NCBI GenBank assembly: GCA_963740085.1
Contig: CAVUCU010000004.1
Coordinates: 706,011-770,010 of the forward strand
Direction: 5' to 3'
DNA: 64,000 nt
Source of the DNA: Nitrospirota bacterium
GTDB taxonomy: Bacteria > Nitrospirota > UBA9217
Positions 26,737 to 60,873 of this stretch are shown one piece after another. The notes below the pieces were generated by a model that was given only the letters and a program-made list of their open reading frames with translations, ran no database searches and was not told where the DNA came from. Both the position numbers and the translations under genes were made by a program. Each line of letters begins with the position of its first letter. The stretch's first letter is position 1.

Positions 26737-26864
26737 AATAAATAAGCTCCTCTCCCGTTATAGAGAATACAGATACCGCACGCCCTGGCCTTCCCTTGCC
26801 GCAAAGGTTTGGTTTAATTTTACCACAGGAGAACACAGGGAGCGGGATATGGCCCATTTTTTTA

Positions 26865-27158
26865 TCTGCCGTTCCCCTGCGACGGGCAGCTCTGACACAA
26901 GAGACACGCATAGCAATGCTGCACAGATCATAGTTACAGGAACAAGACAAGGCAGACACACGCCCTGCACTCGCGACGTAGCACTCGTAAACGCTGGGTG
27001 CAGGCGGCCGGGCCCTGTTTTAAAGGGCGAGGGTGGAGTGACGCGAGTCCCGCATATCAGGGTGGAGGTACGGTACCTCTTCCCGTCATGCAAAGCCAAC
27101 CTCGAATGCTTCTATCGGGGGTGGCCGAATGATGAGCTGCCCAAAATAATCAATGCAC
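26865..27158 (+). ncRNA. Putative structured ncRNA/dispersed element, type A, full copy A1
   Basis: Near-identical to 28748-29000 and rc(56184-56448); GGGCAGCTC(26884)/GAGCTGCCC(27134) pairing with CTGA/ATGATGA K-turn; several hairpins. Confidence 0.65.
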
Positions 27159-27272: not shown

Positions 27273-28727
27273 ATGCATACGGGTTGTTTCATCGGCATTG
27301 ATCAGGGGAGCAGCGCTACCAAGGCCATGGCCATCAGCACCGAAGGACAGGTGCTCTTCCAGGTCCGGAAGGACCTTGCGCCGCCTTTTCGGGACGGGAA
27401 CCGCATCGAGCATGATGCACAAGAGATCCTCCGGTCGATCTCCGATGCCCTGAACGAATCCATTCAGGCAGTCCAGGACTCCGGCGTTCGGGTCCTGGGC
27501 GTCGGGTTCTCATGCCAACGCTCCTCCTGCCTCGCCTGGAACGGATCAACAGGGGCCCCTCTCACACCGGTGATCAGCTGGCGCGATACCCGGGGGAGCG
27601 AACTCATCGAGACCCTCAGGGACCGGGGGCCGGAGATCCTTCGAAGGTCCGGCCTTCCACTCACGCCCTACTATTCCGCCTCGAAGCTGCGATGGATCAG
27701 GGACACCTTGGCAGCCGCAGGACAGACGGACGCGGTATACGGGACGCTCAGCAGTTTTCTGGTCCGGCATCTCACCGGGAACACAACGGACGCGATCGAT
27801 CACACCCATGCCGCCCGCACCCAGCTCATGAACATCAAAACGATTTCGTGGGACGAGGAGCTGATCGGGATCTTCGGTCTTACCGACATCACACTTCCGA
27901 GGATCGTACCCTCGGCGCGCGCCTTCGGGAACGCGCACAGCCCGGCGGGAGATGTCCCCCTGCTCGCCTGTCTCGGCGACCAGCAGGCGGCCATGATCGG
28001 GCTCGGTGTTTTCGAAAAGGGTGACGCGGGGATCAATCTCGGGACAGGCGGATTTCTGATGCTGAACACCGGCGCCGGACTCGTACCTGCCGAAGGACTC
28101 ATGGCATCCGTGCAGTATTCAGATGAAAAAGGACTGCATTATCTGCTCGAAGGAAGCGTGAACGCCGTTGGCGACGCCCTCGAATGGACAAGGACGAACC
28201 TCGGCCTCTTCAAAGAGTACGAGGAGATGGACGACCTCTGCTGGAAGGCCGCGACCGACACCATAGCATTCATCGGCCTGAACGGCACCGGCTCGCCGCA
28301 CTGGGAAACGAACATCTCGAGCGCTTTCCACGGTCTGGGGCCGGAGAGCACCTCGGCGGACATGGTGCGCGCCGTTGTGGAGGGCATCGTATTCTTCATC
28401 AAGGACATCGCCGAGGAGGTCCGCAAGAATGGGATCGAACCCGGGAAATTCGTACTCGCCGGAGGACTGTCCACCCTCACCTATCTCAGCCAGGTACTGG
28501 CCGATATCCTCAAAACGGACGTCCGCGTCAGCGCCGGCAGGGAGGCCTCGGCCCTGGGCGCTGCATTTCTGGCAGGCATTCAACACGGTGCGTGGAAGGC
28601 CGATGACATCAGGAGAATGGCGGCGCAGGGCGAGGTGGTGCACGGCGAGGCGAACCCCGGACTTGAAAGACGATATAAAAAGTGGAAGGAACTGCACCGG
28701 ATGACAAGACAGATCGACAGGATGTGA
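27273..28727 (+). CDS. FGGY family carbohydrate kinase (glycerol kinase-like)
   Basis: IGIDQGSSATK, QRSS, ISWRDTR, YYSASKL, ARTQL, GDQQAA, GTGGF. Confidence 0.88.
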   Translation: MHTGCFIGIDQGSSATKAMAISTEGQVLFQVRKDLAPPFRDGNRIEHDAQEILRSISDALNESIQAVQDSGVRVLGVGFSCQRSSCLAWNGSTGAPLTPVISWRDTRGSELIETLRDRGPEILRRSGLPLTPYYSASKLRWIRDTLAAAGQTDAVYGTLSSFLVRHLTGNTTDAIDHTHAARTQLMNIKTISWDEELIGIFGLTDITLPRIVPSARAFGNAHSPAGDVPLLACLGDQQAAMIGLGVFEKGDAGINLGTGGFLMLNTGAGLVPAEGLMASVQYSDEKGLHYLLEGSVNAVGDALEWTRTNLGLFKEYEEMDDLCWKAATDTIAFIGLNGTGSPHWETNISSAFHGLGPESTSADMVRAVVEGIVFFIKDIAEEVRKNGIEPGKFVLAGGLSTLTYLSQVLADILKTDVRVSAGREASALGAAFLAGIQHGAWKADDIRRMAAQGEVVHGEANPGLERRYKKWKELHRMTRQIDRM

Positions 28728-28747: not shown

Positions 28748-29000
28748 TCTTGCCTTTTCCCTGCGCCGGGCAGCTCTGACGCGAAAGACGCGCATAGCAA
28801 TGCTCCACAGATCCTCGTTACGAGAACAAGACAAGGCAGACACGCCCTGCACTCGCGACGTAGCACTCGTAAACGCCGGGTGCAGGCGGCCGAGCCAGGC
28901 TTCCCGGGCGAGGGTGGAGTGATGCGAGTCCTGCATATCAGGGAAGAGATACTGTACCTGTCCGCCATGCTGCGCGGCCGCGTGATGAGCTGCCCAAAAA
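28748..29000 (+). ncRNA. Putative structured ncRNA/dispersed element, type A, full copy A2
   Basis: Direct repeat of A1; GGGCAGCTC(28768)/GAGCTGCCC(28987); CGCGCA(28789)/TGCGCG(28971). Confidence 0.65.
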
Positions 29001-29073
29001 GAACACCAACTCACTGAGTTTAAGCTGGGAGGTAAATCGAACAACCCAAATAAACGCGTGAAGGTCCTCTTCT

Positions 29074-35617: not shown

Positions 35618-36472
35618 ATGACAGGTAAGATCTCGCCGGATATCTCAGGTTATAAGACCTTATACAGGCTGTCGATCTATGTTGTGATCCTTGCCTGGAT
35701 CGTGCTCGGGCTCTATTTCCTGGTGTTCACGAAAGCGGAACACTCGTCAGCAGCGAAGATAGTACAATATTTTTTATCACCCGAACAGCTTGGAATAAAG
35801 TTCAGAACATTAATACTTCTCGCCCCGCTTATCCTTACCATTGTCAGCTATCTCATCTATGACCGGGCCAATCTTTTTCAGAAATCGATCGTCGCGGAGC
35901 AGCAATTGCGCATCCTCAAGGACGATCTCATCGTTTCGTTCGCGAACGCCCTTGACGCAAAGAGCTCCTGGACGCAGGGTCACTCGCAAAGGGTCACCTC
36001 CTACGCCCTCATGATCGCTGAGAAGCTCCATGTCAACGTCGAAGACCGGGAAACGCTCAGGATCGCGAGTTTACTGCATGACGTCGGGAAGATAGGAACG
36101 TATGATGTCATTCTTGACAAGCCGGGTCCGCTTACCGAGGAGGAATGGCACCTCGTCAAGCTGCACCCCGGCAAGGCCGAGGAGATCCTCAAACCGATAA
36201 AACAACTTCAGCATGTGCTGCCGATCATTAAATATCATCACGAGAGGATGGACGGGAAGGGATATCCGGACGGTCTTGCCGGAACAGAAATACCGCTATT
36301 GGCGAAAATACTCTGTCTTGCCGATTCCTTTGACGCCATGATCGAAAATAGACCGTATAAACGGGGAATGAGCAGGACCGAGGCCTACAGGGAGATCAAA
36401 GATAAAATGGATACGCAATTTGACGCGGTTGTTTCGACGGCATTCCTTAGCGCCATGGATACCGCGGAGTAA
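35618..36472 (+). CDS. Membrane-anchored HD-GYP domain phosphodiesterase
   Basis: 2 TM, GHSQRV, LLHDVGK, HHERMDGKGYP, ADSFDAM, RPYK. Confidence 0.9.
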   Translation: MTGKISPDISGYKTLYRLSIYVVILAWIVLGLYFLVFTKAEHSSAAKIVQYFLSPEQLGIKFRTLILLAPLILTIVSYLIYDRANLFQKSIVAEQQLRILKDDLIVSFANALDAKSSWTQGHSQRVTSYALMIAEKLHVNVEDRETLRIASLLHDVGKIGTYDVILDKPGPLTEEEWHLVKLHPGKAEEILKPIKQLQHVLPIIKYHHERMDGKGYPDGLAGTEIPLLAKILCLADSFDAMIENRPYKRGMSRTEAYREIKDKMDTQFDAVVSTAFLSAMDTAE

Positions 36473-36487
36473 TGATCCGCACTGATA

Positions 36488-36567
36488 CGCGTCAGAGCTG
36501 TCCGTCGCATGGGGAAGGCAAGATCAAAAATGCTTTACCCCCACCCTGCGCGTCCGCGGAGCGGCCC
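36488..36567. repeat. Truncated head-to-head A(-)/C(+) junction of the dispersed element family
   Basis: cgcgtcagagctgtccgtcgca..ggcaaga = rc of A 5' end; tcaaaaatgctttaccc...ggagcggcc matches 52821-52862. Confidence 0.7.
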
Positions 36568-48238: not shown

Positions 48239-48355
48239 TGTCTGCCTTATGATACTGCGGCGTTGTTCTCATTTCAAGAGCGGAATGCCAGAGGCAAACA
48301 GTTCTGCCGTTCCCCTGCGCCGGGTAGCTCTGACGCGAGAGACACGCATAGCAAT
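48239..48355. repeat. Truncated type A 5' end (+, 48303-48355) head-to-head with a degenerate B-like remnant (-)
   Basis: tctgccgttcccctgcgccgggtagctctgacgcgagagacacgcatagcaat; minus strand reads tttgcct...cattcc...aaggcagaca. Confidence 0.7.
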
Positions 48356-48446
48356 CAGGATGATAATTGGCAAATGGCAATAAAGAAGGCCGGATGATCA
48401 AAGGAGAACTTCAAAATAAGACCCGACCCTGCGATGTTTCGGAGAA

Positions 48447-49034
48447 CTACTCTATATCGGCGAAATCCCTTCTGACCGTTTCAATATTCTCACGGTATCC
48501 TGCCCCGTCCCCAAAATCGAGGAATTTAACATAACGATGATGCAGGGTCGTCATTTTGCGTGCATGTCTTATGGGGCACCAGTACTGCTCGGTCCTTCCC
48601 GCGATCTCCTGCGTATATGCGATCAAGCCGTTCACGTAGGCGCAGTACTGGCAGTTCACCTTCTCGATGATGTTCAGGTACAGCAAGGCATGGCGGTCAA
48701 AAATAATGAAGCCCTCGCGCTTCACTTTGGGGATCCCATAGATCGGGAAACAGATCGCCTGGAACAGGGTCATCATGAGGTCAAAAAGGAGTGCTGCGGG
48801 CAACACGGACCAGATGATCGGCGCGCTCAGGATCACCGGCCAGGTCGAACTGCGGATGAAAGGGATAATCTTCGCGACAAGGGCCTTCTGCTCGTGATGG
48901 ATCCATTCCTCGAAGGTGACCTTCTTGCCGAATACCTTATAGTAATACTCATCTTCCTTTTTCTGGATCTCCAGCGCGATCTCCTTCTCCAGTTCTTTCA
49001 TCCTCGCGACCAATATATGCAGCCTGCTTTCCAT
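48447..49034 (-). CDS. Hypothetical membrane protein (NCxYCxY...EQYWCPI motif)
   Basis: AAGGAG RBS; Cys motif; hydrophobic segment. Confidence 0.75.
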   Translation of the reverse strand: MESRLHILVARMKELEKEIALEIQKKEDEYYYKVFGKKVTFEEWIHHEQKALVAKIIPFIRSSTWPVILSAPIIWSVLPAALLFDLMMTLFQAICFPIYGIPKVKREGFIIFDRHALLYLNIIEKVNCQYCAYVNGLIAYTQEIAGRTEQYWCPIRHARKMTTLHHRYVKFLDFGDGAGYRENIETVRRDFADIE

Positions 49035-51625: not shown

Positions 51626-51680
51626 GCATGCCTCCTTGTTGAACAATGTTAGGGTCAGGCGTTCACTCGCACCGAATTAC

Positions 51681-51760
51681 TGATCGTTGGGTAATGCATC
51701 TCCAGGTGAGCAGCTCTCTGCTGTTAAGTATGGCCGTATCTCTGTGCTGCATCCATGAGA
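51681..51760 (-). mobile_element. Decayed fragment of a transposase-like C-terminal HTH (copy 1)
   Basis: Translates LMDAAQRYGHT*QQRAAHLEMHYPTI; near-repeat of 54546-54625. Confidence 0.5.
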
Positions 51761-52615: not shown

Positions 52616-52749
52616 ATCATGATTTTTGCGCGAACTGCCGCCAAAGTCAAGGGCAACATGAAATATCATGTCATCGACCATCTTCTGCGCATTATTGATC
52701 AGAGGGCAAGGGGGTAGGTTGACAAGAGGAAATCACAGTTAGAAACAGC

Positions 52750-52819
52750 GTAACTATGATGTGCAGCATTGCTATGCGTGTCTCTCGCCTCAGAGCTACC
52801 CGGCGCAGGAAACGGCAGA
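52750..52819 (-). repeat. Truncated type A element (5' about 70 nt)
   Basis: rc = tctgccgtttcctgcgccgggtagctctgaggcgagagacacgcatagcaatgctgcacatcatagttac. Confidence 0.75.
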
Positions 52820-52820
52820 A

Positions 52821-53046
52821 TCAAAAAGCTTTACCCCGACCCCGCACGTCCCCGGAGCGGCCATTACACCCTGCACCCGAGGTTCCGCTCGTAATCCCTG
52901 CGCGCAGGCGATATTTTGGGCACCCGTCCTGGCCTAAGGAAGCGTCCCCTTGGGGCGAACGCGAAGTACTGCCTGCACCAGCGTTATCGCAAGAGCACGG
53001 TGTCTGAGGCCATAGGCCGGGTTTACGCGGGCGGGCGGTCCGCCCC
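52821..53046 (+). ncRNA. Putative structured element type C, head-to-head with A
   Basis: Shares ccctgcac..ctcgtaa..gcaggcg hairpin with A and hairpin-GGGCGA..AGT.CTGC core with A/B; 5' end recurs at 36524. Confidence 0.5.
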
Positions 53047-54491: not shown

Positions 54492-54545
54492 GTAAAAACC
54501 TCTCTTTGTTATTTTGGTGTCAGTCCATTCCTCGCCCGGGACCGC

Positions 54546-54653
54546 TGATCGCTGGGTAATGCACATCCAGGTGAGCAGCTGTCTGCTGTTGAGTATAGCC
54601 GTATTTCTGAACTACATCAATGATCTTTTTGTCTCCAACAAGGGGAATGTCAA
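54546..54653 (-). mobile_element. Decayed fragment of a transposase-like C-terminal HTH (copy 2)
   Basis: Translates GDKKIIDVVQKYGYTQQQTAAHLDVHYPAIS; 54620-54653 recurs at 60825-60858. Confidence 0.55.
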
Positions 54654-54726
54654 GCCACCGGACCGTAAAGGCTTTGCGTTGATGCGATGATGTGTGGATG
54701 CGTAGATCCGGGAACCGTGAAAAACC

Positions 54727-55900: not shown

Positions 55901-56183
55901 TTTATTCTCCTTCTTGATTAATCCCTGATGTCAGGATCCAACCACACCCTGCACTCGTTTATGGCCGCGTTTTTCGTTCTTTGCGGTGAACGCTTTGATA
56001 AGAAGGTGGTCCTTATAACAAATCGAATGATATATTTACCGCGGAGTCGCGGAGAATTATTGTTTCATAATAAAACCGGTTCTTCTGACTTTTCTGTGGG
56101 CCATTTAATTGCATGTATCGCTTTTTATTCTTCATGAACAATCTGTTTCCCGAATGTTATCTAAGTTGGCGCTTGTCCCAGGT

Positions 56184-56448
56184 GTGCATTGATTTTTTTG
56201 GGCAGCTCATCACTCGGCCACGCAGCATGCCGGGAAGAGGTACAGTATCTCCACCCTGATATGCAGGATTCGCATCACTCCACCCTCGCCCTTCAAAATG
56301 GGCTCGGCCGCCTGCACCCAGCGTTTACGAGTGCTACGTCGCGAGTGCAGGGCGTGTCTGCCTTGTCTTGTTCTGGCAACTATGATCAGTGCAGCATTGC
56401 TCTGCGTGTCTTTCGCGTCAGAGCTGCCCGGCGCAGGGGAACGGCAGA
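56184..56448 (-). ncRNA. Putative structured ncRNA/dispersed element, type A, full copy A3
   Basis: Reverse complement of A1/A2; compensatory CACGCA/TGCGTG versus CGCGCA/TGCGCG in A2. Confidence 0.65.
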
Positions 56449-56452
56449 ACTC

Positions 56453-56680
56453 TTTGCCTTTCCAGAAGCCCCTGCATTCCATGAACAGGTTCGCGCACAA
56501 GCATGCGCATGCTGACACGATCAAAAAAAGCACAAAGCCAGGCAGACACGTCCGAGCCCGTTCCCCCGGGCGAGGGGAAGTGCTGCGAGATGCTCGAAAG
56601 GCTTGTTATCAGTACCGGCAATCATGCCCTGCGCGAAGCTGTGAACTGGGGTGCAGAATAAAACAGGATCGTGACATGTG
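56453..56680 (+). ncRNA. Putative structured element type B, copy B1
   Basis: Repeat of 58754-58978; CTGCATTCCA(56472)/TGGGGTGCAG(56647) pairing; shares GGCAGACACG, CCGAGCC-hairpin-GGGCGAGGG, GTACC and CATGC..TGCGCG with A. Confidence 0.6.
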
Positions 56681-56774
56681 CTGAACCAGAAACAGATAAA
56701 AGCGACCCACACAAAACCCGGAAGACCGATAAAACTTTGAAGTATTGGTTTTAACAAACAAGAAAGTCAGCTTT

Positions 56775-56805
56775 TCTCTGCGTCCTCTGCGTTCTCTGCG
56801 GTGAA
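56775..56805. repeat. CTCTGCG 9-mer tandem REP-like repeat
   Basis: tctctgcgtcctctgcgttctctgcggtgaa; related motifs near 26819, 33500, 43430, 50681 and 56037. Confidence 0.55.
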
Positions 56806-56983
56806 TAACGATCACGCAGCTATTGTATTCTCAGTCGGATACATTTTCAACTTGAATTGTTCAATAGTCCGGCCGACGCCGTGGCGGCGTCAGCGGTGAG
56901 GAGAATCTGAAAGGATTCCCGTGGAGGGACCCCGGTTTTCGCTGCGCAAAGGATGCGACAACGTTCTCCTCAGGCGCCCTTGA

Positions 56984-57430
56984 TCATGCTGCTTTACGCT
57001 CCTCCGCCTGGAGAATATAGCTCCGGAAGTCTCTTTCAATATTTCTGATGAATCTCTCGCGACGCTCCGTATAATGGACCGTCTTGACCCTCATGTAAAT
57101 CCTGTAGTCGACGTAGAAGTACAGCTCGAAGCTGCCCGCCCCGAGCCCTGCCAGTAAAAAGTTGTTCTTGAGCCGCATCAATTCAGGCGTGACCCCAAAA
57201 TCCATAGTAAAAAGGGCGACGACGAACATTATCAGTGCAACAAGGATCACGTAAAAATTCCTGAAAAACCGCCTCTCCAGCTCAGAATACTCGACAGCTT
57301 CCACATGATCGAACATTTTGCCCGCTTTGGCCTTGAACGTTTCCCAATCACTTATCCGTGCGAGGTAAATAAGGGCCTTCCGGTAGTTTTCCACATCCTG
57401 ATTGAATTGTTTTTCCAGTCCCCTTTTCAT
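56984..57430 (-). CDS. Hypothetical membrane protein (2 TM)
   Basis: AAGGAGG RBS; 148 aa ORF. Confidence 0.7.
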   Translation of the reverse strand: MKRGLEKQFNQDVENYRKALIYLARISDWETFKAKAGKMFDHVEAVEYSELERRFFRNFYVILVALIMFVVALFTMDFGVTPELMRLKNNFLLAGLGAGSFELYFYVDYRIYMRVKTVHYTERRERFIRNIERDFRSYILQAEERKAA

Positions 57431-57759
57431 GCCGCACCTCCTTTCACAAAAACAATTCCTCCTCTCTCCGTTTTTTTCGGTTTGCCGCACTGCCGCTTTG
57501 CCGGCACACAAGATCTTTATGAGGCGTATGACGGCCTGGTCTCTATATAAAGTATAGCAACTATTCTGCCGTACCTCAACTTCGGGCGGGGCCGGAACGA
57601 GCCGGACCTTGCCAAGCGGATCTCTCACGGTAGTGACTGCGCAATGTATTCGATACAGGTCGAACGGGATGGAATGGCAGGACAGGAGCGGCAAAAAAAG
57701 AGAAGACTGCAGTAAAGACCTGATCCTGAGATGTTTTAATCAAGACACAAAACATGATC

Positions 57760-58608
57760 CTATAGGTTTCCTGAAGAGCTTCTTTCCAGGGCAGCCGGAA
57801 CGACAAGAACGATATCAGCAAGGCCTTTGCAAGCATCGTCAAACCCGGGCGTGTCCCTGCTGACCGAAGAGATGGTCCGGACCGCGATCTCCGGATCATA
57901 CTGTTTGAGATACCAGCAGATCCCACCGTAGTTCTTTGAATGATAATCACCGTTATAATGAAGGAACAGCTCCTTCGGACCGCGGTTCTTCAGGATAAAG
58001 TATGCCATGGTGGCGTCCTTGACCGCCTGTGCGGCGACGAAGTTCTGCGCGTCCATATGCGCGCCATGGGCCATGCCGATCTCCATGACCTTCCGGTACC
58101 CCGGGGCTGAAAGATCCAGCGGAATGGGAAGCGGAGCGATCGATCTCTTCGCCTCATCGGACAGACGTTCGAGCGCCTCCATTCCCTCCCGGGCCACGAG
58201 GCCGGCATAGCGCCTTGGGACATTGGTCGCGATGAACCGAAGTCCGTGCTCTTTGGCAACATCAACGAGCGGACGATAATCGCTGTCGTAATTGTCCCAG
58301 ACCCTGGCCTCCCGCGCCAGGTTCTCATGCTCGATGAGTCCCGCCAGATATTCATCCACGATCAGCTGGTTGTCCGCCTCCAGCATTTCCGCGCCCAGCA
58401 CCAGATCGCCCTTCTTGATCCCGACAAGGTCCCGCGTCAATTCCAGCTGCAGCCGGTGGACCAGCGGGTGATCGTGGATCTCGCCGAAGAGGATGACGTC
58501 GGCCCGGACGCAGCGGTCCAGCATTTCCCGGTACCGGATCTCCTTCCCTCCCCCGTCATAGAGGAGATACAACGGCTTGTTGTCCGGAATTGTCCTGCGA
58601 TGTCGCAT
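57760..58608 (-). CDS. ChaN family (DUF399) protein, no evident signal peptide
   Basis: LFGEIHD...H.LQ, GAEM.E, WDNY..DY.PL, ATNVPR, AQAVKDATMA, NGDYHS. Confidence 0.8.
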   Translation of the reverse strand: MRHRRTIPDNKPLYLLYDGGGKEIRYREMLDRCVRADVILFGEIHDHPLVHRLQLELTRDLVGIKKGDLVLGAEMLEADNQLIVDEYLAGLIEHENLAREARVWDNYDSDYRPLVDVAKEHGLRFIATNVPRRYAGLVAREGMEALERLSDEAKRSIAPLPIPLDLSAPGYRKVMEIGMAHGAHMDAQNFVAAQAVKDATMAYFILKNRGPKELFLHYNGDYHSKNYGGICWYLKQYDPEIAVRTISSVSRDTPGFDDACKGLADIVLVVPAALERSSSGNL

Positions 58609-58707
58609 ATCGACTTCTTCTCCTCACTCCGCTTACACAGGCTCGTGTTCCATAGCCATACTGCAAGGATAGCATATCCGGAAGAGATTCTCGGGATGTT
58701 CCGGCTC

Positions 58708-58749
58708 CGTGTCTCGCGTCAGAGCTGCCCGGCGCAGGGGTAAAGCAGA
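58708..58749 (-). repeat. Truncated type A element (5' about 42 nt)
   Basis: rc = tctgctttacccctgcgccgggcagctctgacgcgagacacg. Confidence 0.75.
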
Positions 58750-58753
58750 AATC

Positions 58754-58978
58754 TTTGCTTTTCCAGAAGCCCCTGCATCCCATGAACAGGTCCGCGCACA
58801 GCATGCCAATCTAGAAAAGACCGAAGATGCCACAAAGCCAGGCAAACACGACCGAGCCTGTTCCCCCGGGCGAGGGAAAGTGCTGCGATGATCGAAAGGC
58901 TTTGTTATCAGTACCGGCAATCATGCTCTGCGCGGTGTTGTGAACTGGGGTGCAGAAAATAAAAAGATCGTTACCTGT
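58754..58978 (+). ncRNA. Putative structured element type B, copy B2
   Basis: Repeat of B1 with compensatory changes (CCGCGCA/TGCGCGG versus TCGCGCA/TGCGCGA). Confidence 0.6.
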
Positions 58979-59062
58979 AATGAATTAGAAATAAAGACAT
59001 GGCAATTCAGTGCGTTGGCCAGGAGAAGATGAAGTGAAAGCTCAATCATAAATATAACGTTC

Positions 59063-59098
59063 AAAAATATGCTGGAGCATCAGGATCGATGCTCCAGC
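59063..59098 (-). terminator. Rho-independent terminator
   Basis: gctggagcatc-N6-gatgctccagc stem followed by atattttt on the minus strand. Confidence 0.65.
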
Positions 59099-59109
59099 GA
59101 AATCGAATG

Positions 59110-60668: not shown

Positions 60669-60873
60669 AAGAACTCCCTTCGATTCAATGATAAGTGTTT
60701 TCCATCAGAAAGCAGGCATGACAGGTTAAATTATAGCACCTTAATCTGCTGGAGAGCATTTGGGATGTTGATTATGTGTTGCGATGAATGACAATGCGGA
60801 GACAAAGCAAGGAGGGATGAGAAGATGATCTTTTTGTTTTCAACAAGGGGAATGCCAAAATAAAGGACCTGAC

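What the first reader, a model, noticed from the sequence alone, without database searches (positions are those of the whole stretch)
56453..56680. Type B element is a diverged structural homolog of A with a replaced closing helix
Seen: B1 (56453-56680) and B2 (58754-58978) keep A's colinear motifs: TYTGCY, TGA, CGCGCA, AGCA(A)TGC, AGGCARACACG, CCGAGCC-hairpin-GGGCGAGGG, AGTG.TGCGA, TATCA, GTACC, CATGC..TGCGCG, GTGA and an A-rich tail. They lack the CCTGCAC hairpin, and the closing helix GGGCAGCTC/GAGCTGCCC is replaced by CTGCATYCCA/TGGGGTGCAG. B1 versus B2 shows U-A to C-G and U.G to C-G changes. Inference: replacing a whole helix sequence while keeping the pairing is strong evidence of selection on structure; the invariant single-stranded motifs are candidate catalytic or protein-binding residues.
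Basis: seen in the sequence. Interest (0 to 1): 0.75.

Follow-up and report, generated by a model that had tools for sequence, protein, structure and literature searches.

The report
Structured arms of an ISL3-type MITE
The "type B" element is a real, diverged copy of "type A" that keeps the same folded shape, but the two together are the opposite arms of a small mobile DNA element that has spread through one bacterial family.

Summary
B1 and B2 are colinear homologues of A. A covariance model trained on A alone finds them at 54.6 and 44.0 bits, against 15 bits or less for background. The closing helix has a different sequence in B but still pairs.

In this genome 13 of 15 B copies sit head-to-head with an A copy. 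The A(-)|B(+) pair in the window, about 56077-56728, ends in imperfect 25-bp terminal inverted repeats and is flanked by the direct repeat ATAAAAC. Other copies have exact 8-bp AT-rich flanking repeats. In metagenome contigs the same inverted repeats enclose 1.3-kb elements that encode ISL3-family transposases.

A and B are therefore the two arms of a non-autonomous ISL3-type MITE. It occurs in at least seven genera of one family; related records are labelled Nitrospirota. This genome has no ISL3 transposase.

The intra-arm fold (P1-P5, tandem G.A motifs, an invariant U.G pair) is kept by compensatory changes and is more stable on the sense strand. That suggests selection on a transcript, but transcription, its strand and any function are not shown. 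There is no Rfam match. Moderate interest: a new variant of a known kind.

The parts
56077..56728 (.). Whole composite A(-)|B(+) unit: a non-autonomous ISL3-type MITE of about 652 bp
   Evidence: The unit aligns as a block to copies in other species while the flanks do not. Termini and flanking repeat read.
56070..56076 (.). Left copy of the flanking direct repeat ATAAAAC (target-site duplication)
   Evidence: The same 7 nt recur at 56729-56735. Other copies have exact 8-bp repeats.
56729..56735 (.). Right copy of the flanking direct repeat ATAAAAC
56078..56102 (+). Left terminal inverted repeat (A-type end, GGTTCTTCTGACTTTTCTGTGGG..)
   Evidence: The same end type pairs with the B-type end in metagenome MITEs.
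56703..56727 (-). Right terminal inverted repeat (B-type end; its reverse complement reads GGTCTTCCGGGTTTTGTGTGGGTC)
   Evidence: the 25-mer with up to 3 mismatches occurs in 28 of 61 family genomes and 0 times in the backward control. It flanks ISL3 transposases in L267 and L268.
56103..56192 (-). 3' extension of the A arm (after the A-tract), homologous to the B extension
   Evidence: Alignment of 18 A 3' flanks.
56193..56449 (-). A arm core (long variant)
   Evidence: R1 scores it at 245.9 bits. Hand-built helices P1-P5 checked on A1.
56309..56352 (-). 44-nt CCTGCAC hairpin nested in the A arm between P4 and P5; an independent small repeat
   Evidence: Present in 5 of the 16 full A copies in the genome. 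Found alone at about 90% identity in many family genomes (hits to query 149-200). DNA and RNA run contigs lacking it are listed, table 5.
56453..56471 (+). B1 leader (UCUUUGCCUUUCCAGAAGCC), conserved and unpaired in the model
   Evidence: A2 conservation line.
56472..56481 (+). B1 P1 5' strand, CUGCAUUCCA
   Evidence: Pairs with 56647-56656. A2 columns 30-39 with 253-262 pair in 96.3% of cells. Also in the MFE fold of B1.
56482..56484 (+). UGA of the tandem-G.A internal loop (opposite GAAC at 56643-56646)
   Evidence: Read from the sequence; conserved in A2. The loop geometry is inferred.
56485..56497 (+). B1 P2 5' strand
   Evidence: Pairs with 56630-56642. 8 of 13 pairs change on both sides across 40 sequences.
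56501..56505 (+). B1 P3 5' strand, GCAUG (pairs with 56623-56627)
   Evidence: Two alignment registers in A2. Compensatory variants in L085 and L089 read by eye. P3 pairs in A3.
56542..56586 (+). B1 P4-P5 hairpin module shared with A (GCAGACAC..CCGAGCCC-loop-GGGCGAGG..GUGCUGC)
   Evidence: R1 aligns it with high posterior probability. P4 pair 114-170 is AU in 24 and GC in 14 sequences. The P5 G.A/A.G tandem is replaced by U-A/C-G in 4 of 20 A copies.
56630..56642 (+). B1 P2 3' strand
56647..56656 (+). B1 P1 3' strand, UGGGGUGCAG
   Evidence: The U.G pair at A2 columns 35-257 is present in 40 of 40 sequences.
56657..56702 (+). B1 A-rich tract and conserved 3' extension leading into the right inverted repeat
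58686..58750 (-). Remnant of an A arm (5' part only) abutting B2
   Evidence: R1 scores it at 23.6 bits.
58753..58962 (+). B2 core: a decayed second copy with no recognisable terminal repeat
   Evidence: R1 scores it at 44.0 bits. No inverted-repeat hit near it.

Best explanation
B1 is the right arm, and the adjacent A copy on the opposite strand is the left arm, of a roughly 650-bp non-autonomous transposon (MITE) of the ISL3 family.

Each arm has the same layout: leader, a rod-like fold (P1, a tandem-G.A loop, P2, P3, and a P4-P5 hairpin), an A-rich tract, a 3' extension, and a terminal inverted repeat. The two arms are diverged inverted copies of one ancestral module, so B looks like 'A with another closing helix'.

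Shown: the unit is defined by its 25-bp terminal inverted repeats and its 8-bp AT-rich target-site duplications. It was presumably moved in trans by ISL3 transposases that carry the same terminal repeats and are present in related genomes but not in this one.

Shown: each arm can fold on itself, and this fold is kept through compensatory substitutions across genera.

Inferred: the fold matters in a single-stranded form, most likely a transcript of the sense strand. Because the arms point outwards, any transcript that crosses the unit ends with one arm in sense. Such a structure could act as a stable RNA domain that affects processing or stability of neighbouring transcripts, or as a small RNA. 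The actual role is unknown.
For: Homology and fold:
- The A-only model R1 finds B1 and B2 at 54.6 and 44.0 bits, and 12 of 15 B copies genome-wide.
- On the unfitted B alignment A2 (40 sequences, 9 genomes plus MAG contigs), 84% of cells pair against 22-45% for slid controls. 17 pairs change on both sides; 0 of 500 shuffles reach this.
- On the joint alignment A3 (74 sequences), P1 pairs in 98.9% of cells and 8 of 9 pairs change on both sides.

Strand:
- In the B rod (P1 plus P2), G.U occupies 80 cells and A.C 6 cells.
- The sense strand folds more stably than the antisense in 35 of 40 B and 19 of 20 A sequences, by a mean of -7.4 and -8.1 kcal/mol.

MITE:
- 13 of 15 B copies abut an A copy head-to-head.
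- The arm ends are homologous and inverted.
- Six G000 units have flanking repeats at their exact termini: four match 8 of 8 bases and two share a 7-base repeat.
- 8 of 16 inverted-repeat pairs in metagenome contigs have 8-of-8 repeats, including the B|A units L241 and L281.
- Flanks are unrelated between species.

Autonomous partner:
- L267 and L268 carry 411- and 407-aa ORFs between the same inverted repeats. They match Pfam DDE_Tnp_ISL3 at E 9e-62 and 3e-71, and also the ISL3 zinc ribbon and HTH domains.
- L291 is a 1302-bp IS with an 8-of-8 target-site duplication.
- In six family-genome places the inverted repeat lies 30 bases beyond the aligned end of an ISL3 transposase match.
- G000 has no ISL3 transposase.

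RNA: an RNA-library run holds contigs of relatives over both arms.
Against: - No promoter or terminator is evident in or beside the arms. The 5' ends of the arms are 7 nt apart, leaving no room for a central promoter.
- The RNA evidence is contigs only, from relatives, of a multicopy sequence. It shows neither strand nor ends.
- A full-length read-through transcript is predicted to pair arm with arm: 126-128 inter-arm pairs against about 90 intra-arm pairs. This competes with the intra-arm fold.
- Most G.U cells come from two fixed positions.
- Copies are related by amplification, so the shuffle controls overstate independence.
- B-like modules also occur in tandem arrays in genomes where the inverted-repeat pattern is rare (G004, G005; 1 and 3 pattern hits). 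The module is therefore not tied to the MITE.
- One G000 unit with both ends recognisable (C1:1501078) shows no flanking repeat.
Confidence: 0.72

Rival explanations
1. A and B are genes for a new class of structured non-coding RNA (protein-binding, regulatory or catalytic). The MITE is only a vehicle that spreads them, and the module is what selection acts on.
For: - Compensatory changes in P1-P5.
- An invariant U.G pair in 40 of 40 B sequences and conserved tandem G.A motifs.
- Near-invariant single-stranded leader and tail.
- B-like modules in tandem arrays of about 427 nt period in G004 and G005, where the inverted-repeat pattern is rare.
- Sense strand more stable than antisense.
- Contigs over the arms in an RNA library.
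Against: - No promoter or terminator seen.
- No conserved neighbouring gene and no orientation rule relative to neighbours.
- No Rfam family matches.
- A variant with the B interior replaced by a 16-nt hairpin still has 4 identical copies in G001.
- Transcription and strand are not shown.
Confidence: 0.25
2. The fold is a by-product with no RNA function. The arms were built by nested insertions of palindromic repeats. Pairing is kept by descent from a few master copies and by replication template-switching that perfects quasi-palindromes.
For: - Mosaic make-up: the 44-nt CCTGCAC hairpin is an independent repeat nested in some A copies.
- 7 of 15 B copies have P5 replaced by a piece also found in another repeat ('element C').
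- MITEs with the same inverted repeats carry unrelated interiors.
- Copies fall into a few subfamilies, so many 'double changes' may be single events.
Against: - Template-switch correction would give Watson-Crick pairs. Yet the U.G pair at A2 columns 35-257 is never 'corrected' in 40 sequences from several genera, and the G.A tandems persist.
- The long-range helices P1 and P2 lie about 165 nt apart, and P2 still has 8 of 13 pairs with double changes.
- Several pairs show three or more pair types.
Confidence: 0.22
3. The intra-arm hairpins act at the DNA level. Either they form in single-stranded or cruciform DNA needed for transposition, or they are binding sites for the transposase or a host factor.
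For: - The strand asymmetry and the G.T-tolerant pairing would also fit single-stranded DNA.
- P1 is almost invariant in sequence within each type, as a protein site would be.
Against: - MITEs with the same inverted repeats and exact 8-bp duplications have entirely different interiors of 311-342 bp.
- A mini-B variant lacking the interior has multiplied. The interior is therefore not needed for movement.
- The autonomous IS copies have only about 63 nt and 20 nt of non-coding ends and no A- or B-like sequence.
- From recall, ISL3 elements are DDE transposons with no known hairpin requirement.
Confidence: 0.08
4. B encodes a small protein. An ATG-initiated frame runs through B1 from the conserved CCATGAAC.
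For: An open frame of about 70 codons can be read in B1 from 56482 (read by eye).
Against: - Copies differ by indels that are not multiples of three. For example, a 2-nt insertion in 3 of 15 G000 B copies, B1 among them, and blocks of 17 or more nt replaced.
- A has no ATG at the homologous place.
- Conservation follows base pairs, not codons.
Confidence: 0.01

Closest known systems
Bacterial MITEs derived from insertion sequences (for example the Correia element, ERIC, and pneumococcal BOX/RUP/SPRITE)
   Same: - Small, non-coding and multicopy.
- Terminal inverted repeats shared with an autonomous IS, and target-site duplications.
- Insertion into AT-rich intergenic DNA.
- Transcripts predicted to form stable stem-loops.
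- Elements nested in one another.
These general features come from passages of the review PMC10969869 read. For this element they are shown.
   Different: The usual MITE hairpin is arm-with-arm. Here each roughly 300-bp arm has its own multi-helix fold with compensatory changes, the two arms are about as far apart as two RNA subfamilies, and the closing helix differs completely between them. I found no ISL3-derived MITE with such arms in my searches (listing only).
ISL3-family insertion sequences
   Same: - Terminal repeats beginning GG.TCTTC.
- 8-bp target-site duplication: L291 matches 8 of 8, and MITE copies do too.
- Transposase with zinc ribbon, HTH and DDE_Tnp_ISL3 domains between the same repeats.
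That 8-bp duplications are typical of ISL3 is recalled from ISfinder, not checked here.
   Different: The window unit has no transposase and shares only the roughly 25-bp ends with the IS. Its interior is not IS-derived.
Interspersed repeats with RNA-like compensatory changes (Bacillus cereus group bcr repeats; recalled from Kristoffersen et al. 2011, not read here)
   Same: Chromosomal multicopy repeats, some of them MITE-like, whose predicted RNA structure is kept by compensatory substitutions.
   Different: Unrelated sequence and host. This comparison rests on recall only.
Kink-turn / box C-D-like motifs
   Same: The A arm has CUGA after the P1 5' strand and GUGAUGA before the P1 3' strand. 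This allows tandem sheared G.A pairs plus a U.U pair, as in box D and box C (read; the motif definitions are recalled).
   Different: The strand order is reversed relative to terminal C/D motifs. B has UGA opposite GAAC with no 3-nt bulge. A variant in L073 has a continuous P1 with no G.A loop. No protein partner is known, so it is not filed as a member.
REP / BIME / REPIN elements
   Same: Intergenic palindromic repeats, often in inverted pairs, in mosaic arrangements.
   Different: REPs are 20-40 nt, lack terminal inverted repeats and target-site duplications, and are linked to RAYT transposases (recalled). Here each arm is about 300 nt, with ISL3-type ends and 8-bp duplications.

Membership tests
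MITE (non-autonomous IS derivative), ISL3 family | Terminal inverted repeats matching those of an autonomous IS | tested here: met
   The same 24-25-nt ends flank the ISL3 transposase ORFs in L267 and L268. In six family-genome places they lie 30 bases beyond the aligned end of an ISL3 transposase match.
MITE (non-autonomous IS derivative), ISL3 family | Target-site duplication of the length made by the parent IS (8 bp) | tested here: met
   G000 units: four flanking repeats match 8 of 8 bases, two share a 7-base repeat (the window's is ATAAAAC), and one unit has none. Metagenome pairs: 8 of 16 match 8 of 8. The autonomous L291 matches 8 of 8.
MITE (non-autonomous IS derivative), ISL3 family | Short, with no transposase inside | tested here: met
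   The unit is 652 bp. ORFs across it are not conserved between copies. No ISL3 domain is found anywhere in G000.
MITE (non-autonomous IS derivative), ISL3 family | Many copies at unrelated sites | tested here: met
   13 composites plus solo arms in G000. Flanks are unrelated between species. All neighbour-gene orientations occur.
MITE (non-autonomous IS derivative), ISL3 family | Observed mobility (empty versus filled site, or a transposition assay) | tested here: inconclusive
   The flanks of the window copy have no DNA-level match in 8 genomes of the genus, so no empty site could be compared.
Structured non-coding RNA family | Conserved secondary structure supported by covariation | tested here: met
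   Caveats: the sequences are related copies, and A3 is fitted to the model.
Structured non-coding RNA family | Made as an RNA of defined strand and ends | tested here: inconclusive
   Only contigs from one RNA-library run of relatives; no strand or end information. The promoter and terminator scan shows nothing in the arms.
Any described Rfam family (including self-cleaving ribozymes) | Match to a curated covariance model | tested here: not met
   No hit at gathering score in the window. Only one chance-level miRNA hit at E 7.4 in 56100-59100.
Kink-turn / box C-D motif | Canonical stem, 3-nt bulge, tandem sheared G.A pairs | tested here: inconclusive
   Tandem G.A is possible in both A and B. 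A 3-nt bulge fits only one register in some A copies and never in B (read).
IS110-family bridge/seek RNA | Non-coding RNA next to an IS110-family recombinase and part of that element | tested here: not met
   The single IS110-family ORF in G000 (C1:1497346-1498455) has its own inverted ends. It sits inside a different repeat ('element C'), not in A or B. Its family was assigned by eye from the translation, not by a Pfam run.

The most novel reading that the evidence does not exclude
A and B are two subfamilies of a previously undescribed, roughly 200-nt rod-shaped non-coding RNA. Its features are tandem G.A loops, an invariant U.G pair, and a conserved leader and tail. ISL3-type MITEs copy it around the genomes of a Nitrospirota family, making it a 'mobile RNA gene' whose product binds a protein or acts on neighbouring transcripts.
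Probability: 0.27. Interest if true: 0.7.

Novelty: new variant of a known kind. Interest (0 to 1): 0.45.

Why it matters
The finding shows that an apparently free-standing pair of 'structured RNA' candidates is a transposon. This matters for genome scans: MITE arms can pass covariance-model and covariation tests.

It is also unusual for a bacterial MITE. Each arm keeps its own multi-helix fold through compensatory change across genera, with the closing helix swapped between arms. If the fold works in RNA, this would be a case of a structured RNA domain being spread by a DNA transposon through a poorly studied, mostly uncultured lineage. It would also give a defined module (P1-P5, G.A loops, U.G pair) to test for protein binding or for effects on neighbouring transcripts.

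Tried and rejected
- **Rfam.** At gathering scores over the whole window and at E up to 10 over 56100-59100 there was nothing usable.
- **Cis-regulator or leader RNA.** Rejected, because neighbouring genes show every orientation and no shared gene.
- **Intrinsic terminator.** Rejected. The A-tract follows the hairpin on the sense strand and the T-tract precedes it on the antisense strand, so neither strand reads hairpin-then-U.
- **Sigma-54 promoter at the A/B junction.** GGCAG-N-TTTGC is off by one base from the recalled GG-N10-GC spacing and is absent from solo copies. Dropped.
- **Hammerhead-like reading of CUGA/GUGAUGA/GAAA in A.** The order of the motifs does not fit (by eye). Dropped.
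- **CsrA-type GGA site in the B tail (ACAGGAUCG).** There is a single site only. Not pursued.
- **IS110 bridge RNA.** Considered when an IS110-like ORF turned up beside an A copy. Rejected because that IS is single-copy and is inserted in another repeat.
- **Empty-site comparison within the genus.** Failed because the flanks are too diverged.
- **Autonomous partner next to the GGATCTTCC... repeat variant in G001, G005 and G018.** The loci I fetched held no transposase. The partners came from metagenome contigs and from a protein search instead.
- **Plasmid and phage collections.** No match to the unit.
- **Pattern scan of genome contigs with a 15-mer.** It returned 120 stretches. Of the 80 I scanned, 11 hold real elements, all labelled Nitrospirota or Nitrospirae, and 69 are chance matches.
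- **Sequencing runs.** No run held half or more of the stretch's sampled words. The parts without cover and the small shares are not used as evidence of habitat or absence.
- **Script.** A regular expression for the ends printed nothing, so I read the ends from coordinates instead.
- **Literature.** Searches for a described RNA or repeat of this kind in Nitrospirota, or for an ISL3 MITE with structured arms, gave nothing relevant in the listings. I read passages of PMC10969869 only. Supplementary files were not consulted.

Full report
**What is there.** Rfam 15 has no match in the window at gathering scores. Around the finding at E up to 10 it gives only a chance-level miRNA hit. BLAST and nhmmer against the window's own 3.46-Mb assembly find 15 full B copies, 16 full A copies and several fragments. 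A profile built from A alone hits B copies colinearly at E 1e-7 to 6e-4, and the reverse also holds.

I aligned 20 A sequences, 15 from this genome and 5 from relatives. I left out the intermediate L073. I annotated six helices by hand (P1, P2a, P2b, P3, P4, P5) and checked them on the alignment:
- P2b pair 43-237 is A-U in 7 and G-C in 13 sequences.
- The P5 tandem G.A/A.G is replaced by U-A/C-G in 4 sequences.
- P5 pair 148-164 is G-C in 13 and A-U in 7.

The resulting model R1 scores B1 at 54.6 bits (E 1.1e-15) and B2 at 44.0 bits (E 1.7e-12) over the full model with filters off. The best hit outside the family scores 11.4 bits; a 14.8-bit hit is probably an A fragment. Genome-wide it recovers 12 of 15 B copies; the three missed are long variants. 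The printed alignment shows B1's P1, P2b, P4 and P5 paired under the A structure, with P2a and P3 mis-registered. The refutation condition 'an A-trained model fails to detect B' is therefore not met.

**Structure of B.** I collected 40 distinct B-type sequences: 14 of the 15 G000 copies, array units from two congeners, copies from other genera, and Nitrospirota-labelled MAG contigs. I aligned them with MAFFT, not fitted to any structure. With P1, P2, P4 and P5 annotated:
- 84.0% of cells pair, against 22-45% when the 3' partner is slid by 1-3 columns.
- 17 of 38 pairs change on both sides, against 10.2+-1.4 in shuffles; 0 of 500 shuffles reach this.
- P2 has 8 of 13 pairs with double changes.
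- P4 pair 114-170 is A-U in 24 and G-C in 14 sequences.
- P1 is nearly invariant within B: one pair is A-U in 26 and G-C in 8, and the U.G pair at columns 35-257 is present in 40 of 40.

P3 falls in two alignment registers, so I left it out of that count.

In the joint A+B alignment made by R1 (74 sequences, fitted to the model and therefore biased towards it), P1 pairs in 98.9% of cells and 8 of 9 pairs change on both sides. For example, one pair is C-G in 33, G-C in 33 and U-A in 6. This is the 'replaced closing helix'. ViennaRNA folds B1 alone into the same P1-P5.

**Which strand folds.** In the B rod (P1 plus P2), G.U occupies 80 cells at 10 positions and A.C 6 cells at 5 positions, but two fixed positions supply 66 of the 80. 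The sense strand folds more stably than the antisense in 35 of 40 B and 19 of 20 A sequences, by a mean of 7.4 and 8.1 kcal/mol.

13 of the 15 B copies lie head-to-head with an A copy on the other strand. Their 5' ends are 7 nt apart, or 52-67 nt in three cases, and two of the A partners are truncated. Conservation continues past the A-rich tracts, about 65 nt beyond B and about 120 nt beyond A. The two extensions are homologous and end in an imperfect inverted repeat: GGTTCTTCTGACTTTTCTGTGGG at one end and CCCACACAAAACCCGGAAGACC at the other. Between species only this roughly 650-bp block aligns; the flanks do not.

At the exact termini, G000 units carry these direct repeats:
- TTATTTTT, ATAAAAAA, TTAAAATT and AAAAGACT, each matching 8 of 8 bases.
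- ATAAAAA, a 7-base repeat.
- ATAAAAC at the window copy, a 7-base repeat (56070-56076 and 56729-56735).
- One unit with both ends recognisable has none.
- In the rest, one end is decayed.

**The parent element.** The 25-nt end, with up to 3 mismatches, occurs in 28 of 61 genomes of the family and never in the backward control. A scan of metagenome contigs with the end gave 62 stretches. In these I found 16 inverted pairs 311-1322 bp apart, and 8 of them have identical 8-bp flanks. Three pairs hold B|A composites (L241, L281, L247). Others hold unrelated structured interiors.

The two long pairs, L267 (1322 bp) and L268 (1311 bp), each contain one ORF of 411 or 407 aa. These match Pfam DDE_Tnp_ISL3 (E 9e-62 and 3e-71), Zn_ribbon_ISL3 and HTH_Tnp_ISL3. 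Homologues occur in 16 of 61 family genomes, and in six places the inverted repeat lies 30 bases beyond the aligned end of the transposase match. L291 is a complete 1302-bp copy with an 8-of-8 duplication. G000 has no ISL3 domain or homologue.

The window unit (56077-56728) is therefore a non-autonomous ISL3-type MITE, with A and B as its arms. B2 is a decayed copy: its A arm is reduced to 65 nt and it has no recognisable end.

**Distribution.** DNA or profile matches to arm cores occur in at least 14 genomes of 7 genera of the same family. None was found in 24 genomes of 11 other families of the phylum. Many of the 28-of-36 family hits are only to the 44-nt hairpin. Public contigs with real elements are all labelled Nitrospirota or Nitrospirae: 11 of the 80 loci I scanned. 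Plasmid and phage collections have no match.

**What keeps the fold.** The interior is not needed for movement:
- MITEs with the same ends and exact duplications carry other interiors.
- A variant with the B interior replaced by a 16-nt hairpin has 4 identical copies in G001. The same joint appears in an RNA-library run.
- The IS itself shares only the ends.

Yet the arm fold is kept across genera, with wobble and G.A pairs that a DNA palindrome-correcting process would tend to erase. I therefore favour selection on a transcript. This step is inference:
- The RNA evidence is contigs of relatives with no strand information.
- No promoter or terminator is evident.
- A full-length transcript is predicted to pair arm with arm.
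- B-like modules also form tandem arrays of about 427 nt period in two congeners where the inverted-repeat pattern is rare. That fits a module with a life of its own.

**Comparison and verdict.** The unit meets four of five MITE criteria; observed mobility could not be tested. It meets the covariation criterion for a structured RNA but not the expression criterion. The closest known things are IS-derived bacterial MITEs whose transcripts fold (review passages). What differs is the self-contained, covarying, multi-helix fold in each arm and the helix swap between the arms. I rate it a new variant of a known kind, of moderate interest. There is roughly a one-in-four chance that the arms are a genuinely new RNA class spread by a transposon.

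Noticed in passing
window 52822-53038 (- strand); G000:C1:1497100-1498830: There is another rod-like repeat, which I call 'element C', with a closing helix of the form UUUUGGCACCCGUC/GACGGGUGCCAAAA. In G000 contig C1 a homologous copy is split by the genome's only IS110-family-like element, which has a roughly 370-aa ORF, its own inverted ends and is about 1.55 kb long. The whole sits inside a MITE-ended unit with an 8-of-8 flanking repeat, AAAAGACT. The family of the ORF was judged by eye only.
   Followed up: partly
window 56309-56352, and within 26958-27014 and 28840-28896: A 44-nt CCTGCAC...GTGCAGG hairpin is nested in 5 of the 16 full A copies in the genome. It also occurs alone, at about 90% identity, in many genomes of the family. 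It looks like an independent small palindromic repeat.
   Followed up: partly
L091 (G004:C12:2034300-2040300), L092, L093: Head-to-tail arrays of B-like cores alternate with a roughly 200-nt 'D' module that contains strong hairpins, with a period of about 427 nt. The inverted-repeat pattern is rare in these genomes. The D module alone fills 311-342-bp MITEs in metagenome contigs.
   Followed up: partly
window 56770-56933: The stretch just right of the MITE matches two congeners (G006, G007) at 76-80% identity, although the neighbouring genes do not match. Contigs from runs filed or guessed as RNA cover 56770-56808, at depth 36 in one run. It may be another conserved non-coding element.
   Followed up: no
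window 26864-27149 and 28748-29002 (+): Two solo A copies in the same orientation bracket a single ORF (27274-28727). The first copy carries an extra insert of about 26 nt near its 3' end.
   Followed up: no
window 48302-48459 (+), 52719-52820 (-), 36428-36523 (-): These are A-arm fragments: 5' parts scoring 40.8 and 30.2 bits with R1, and a weak 14.8-bit piece.
   Followed up: no
window 54620-54664 / 60825-60869 and 51646-51758 / 54511-54623: Two further direct-repeat families, at 82% and 78% identity, are unrelated to A and B.
   Followed up: no
L073 (G021:C13), locus positions about 1417-1630: This is a third arm type with an A-like leader and interior. Its P1 is a continuous 13-bp helix (GGGCAUCUUGCAG/CUGCAAGGUGCCC) with no G.A loop. 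It scores with both the A and the B profiles.
   Followed up: partly
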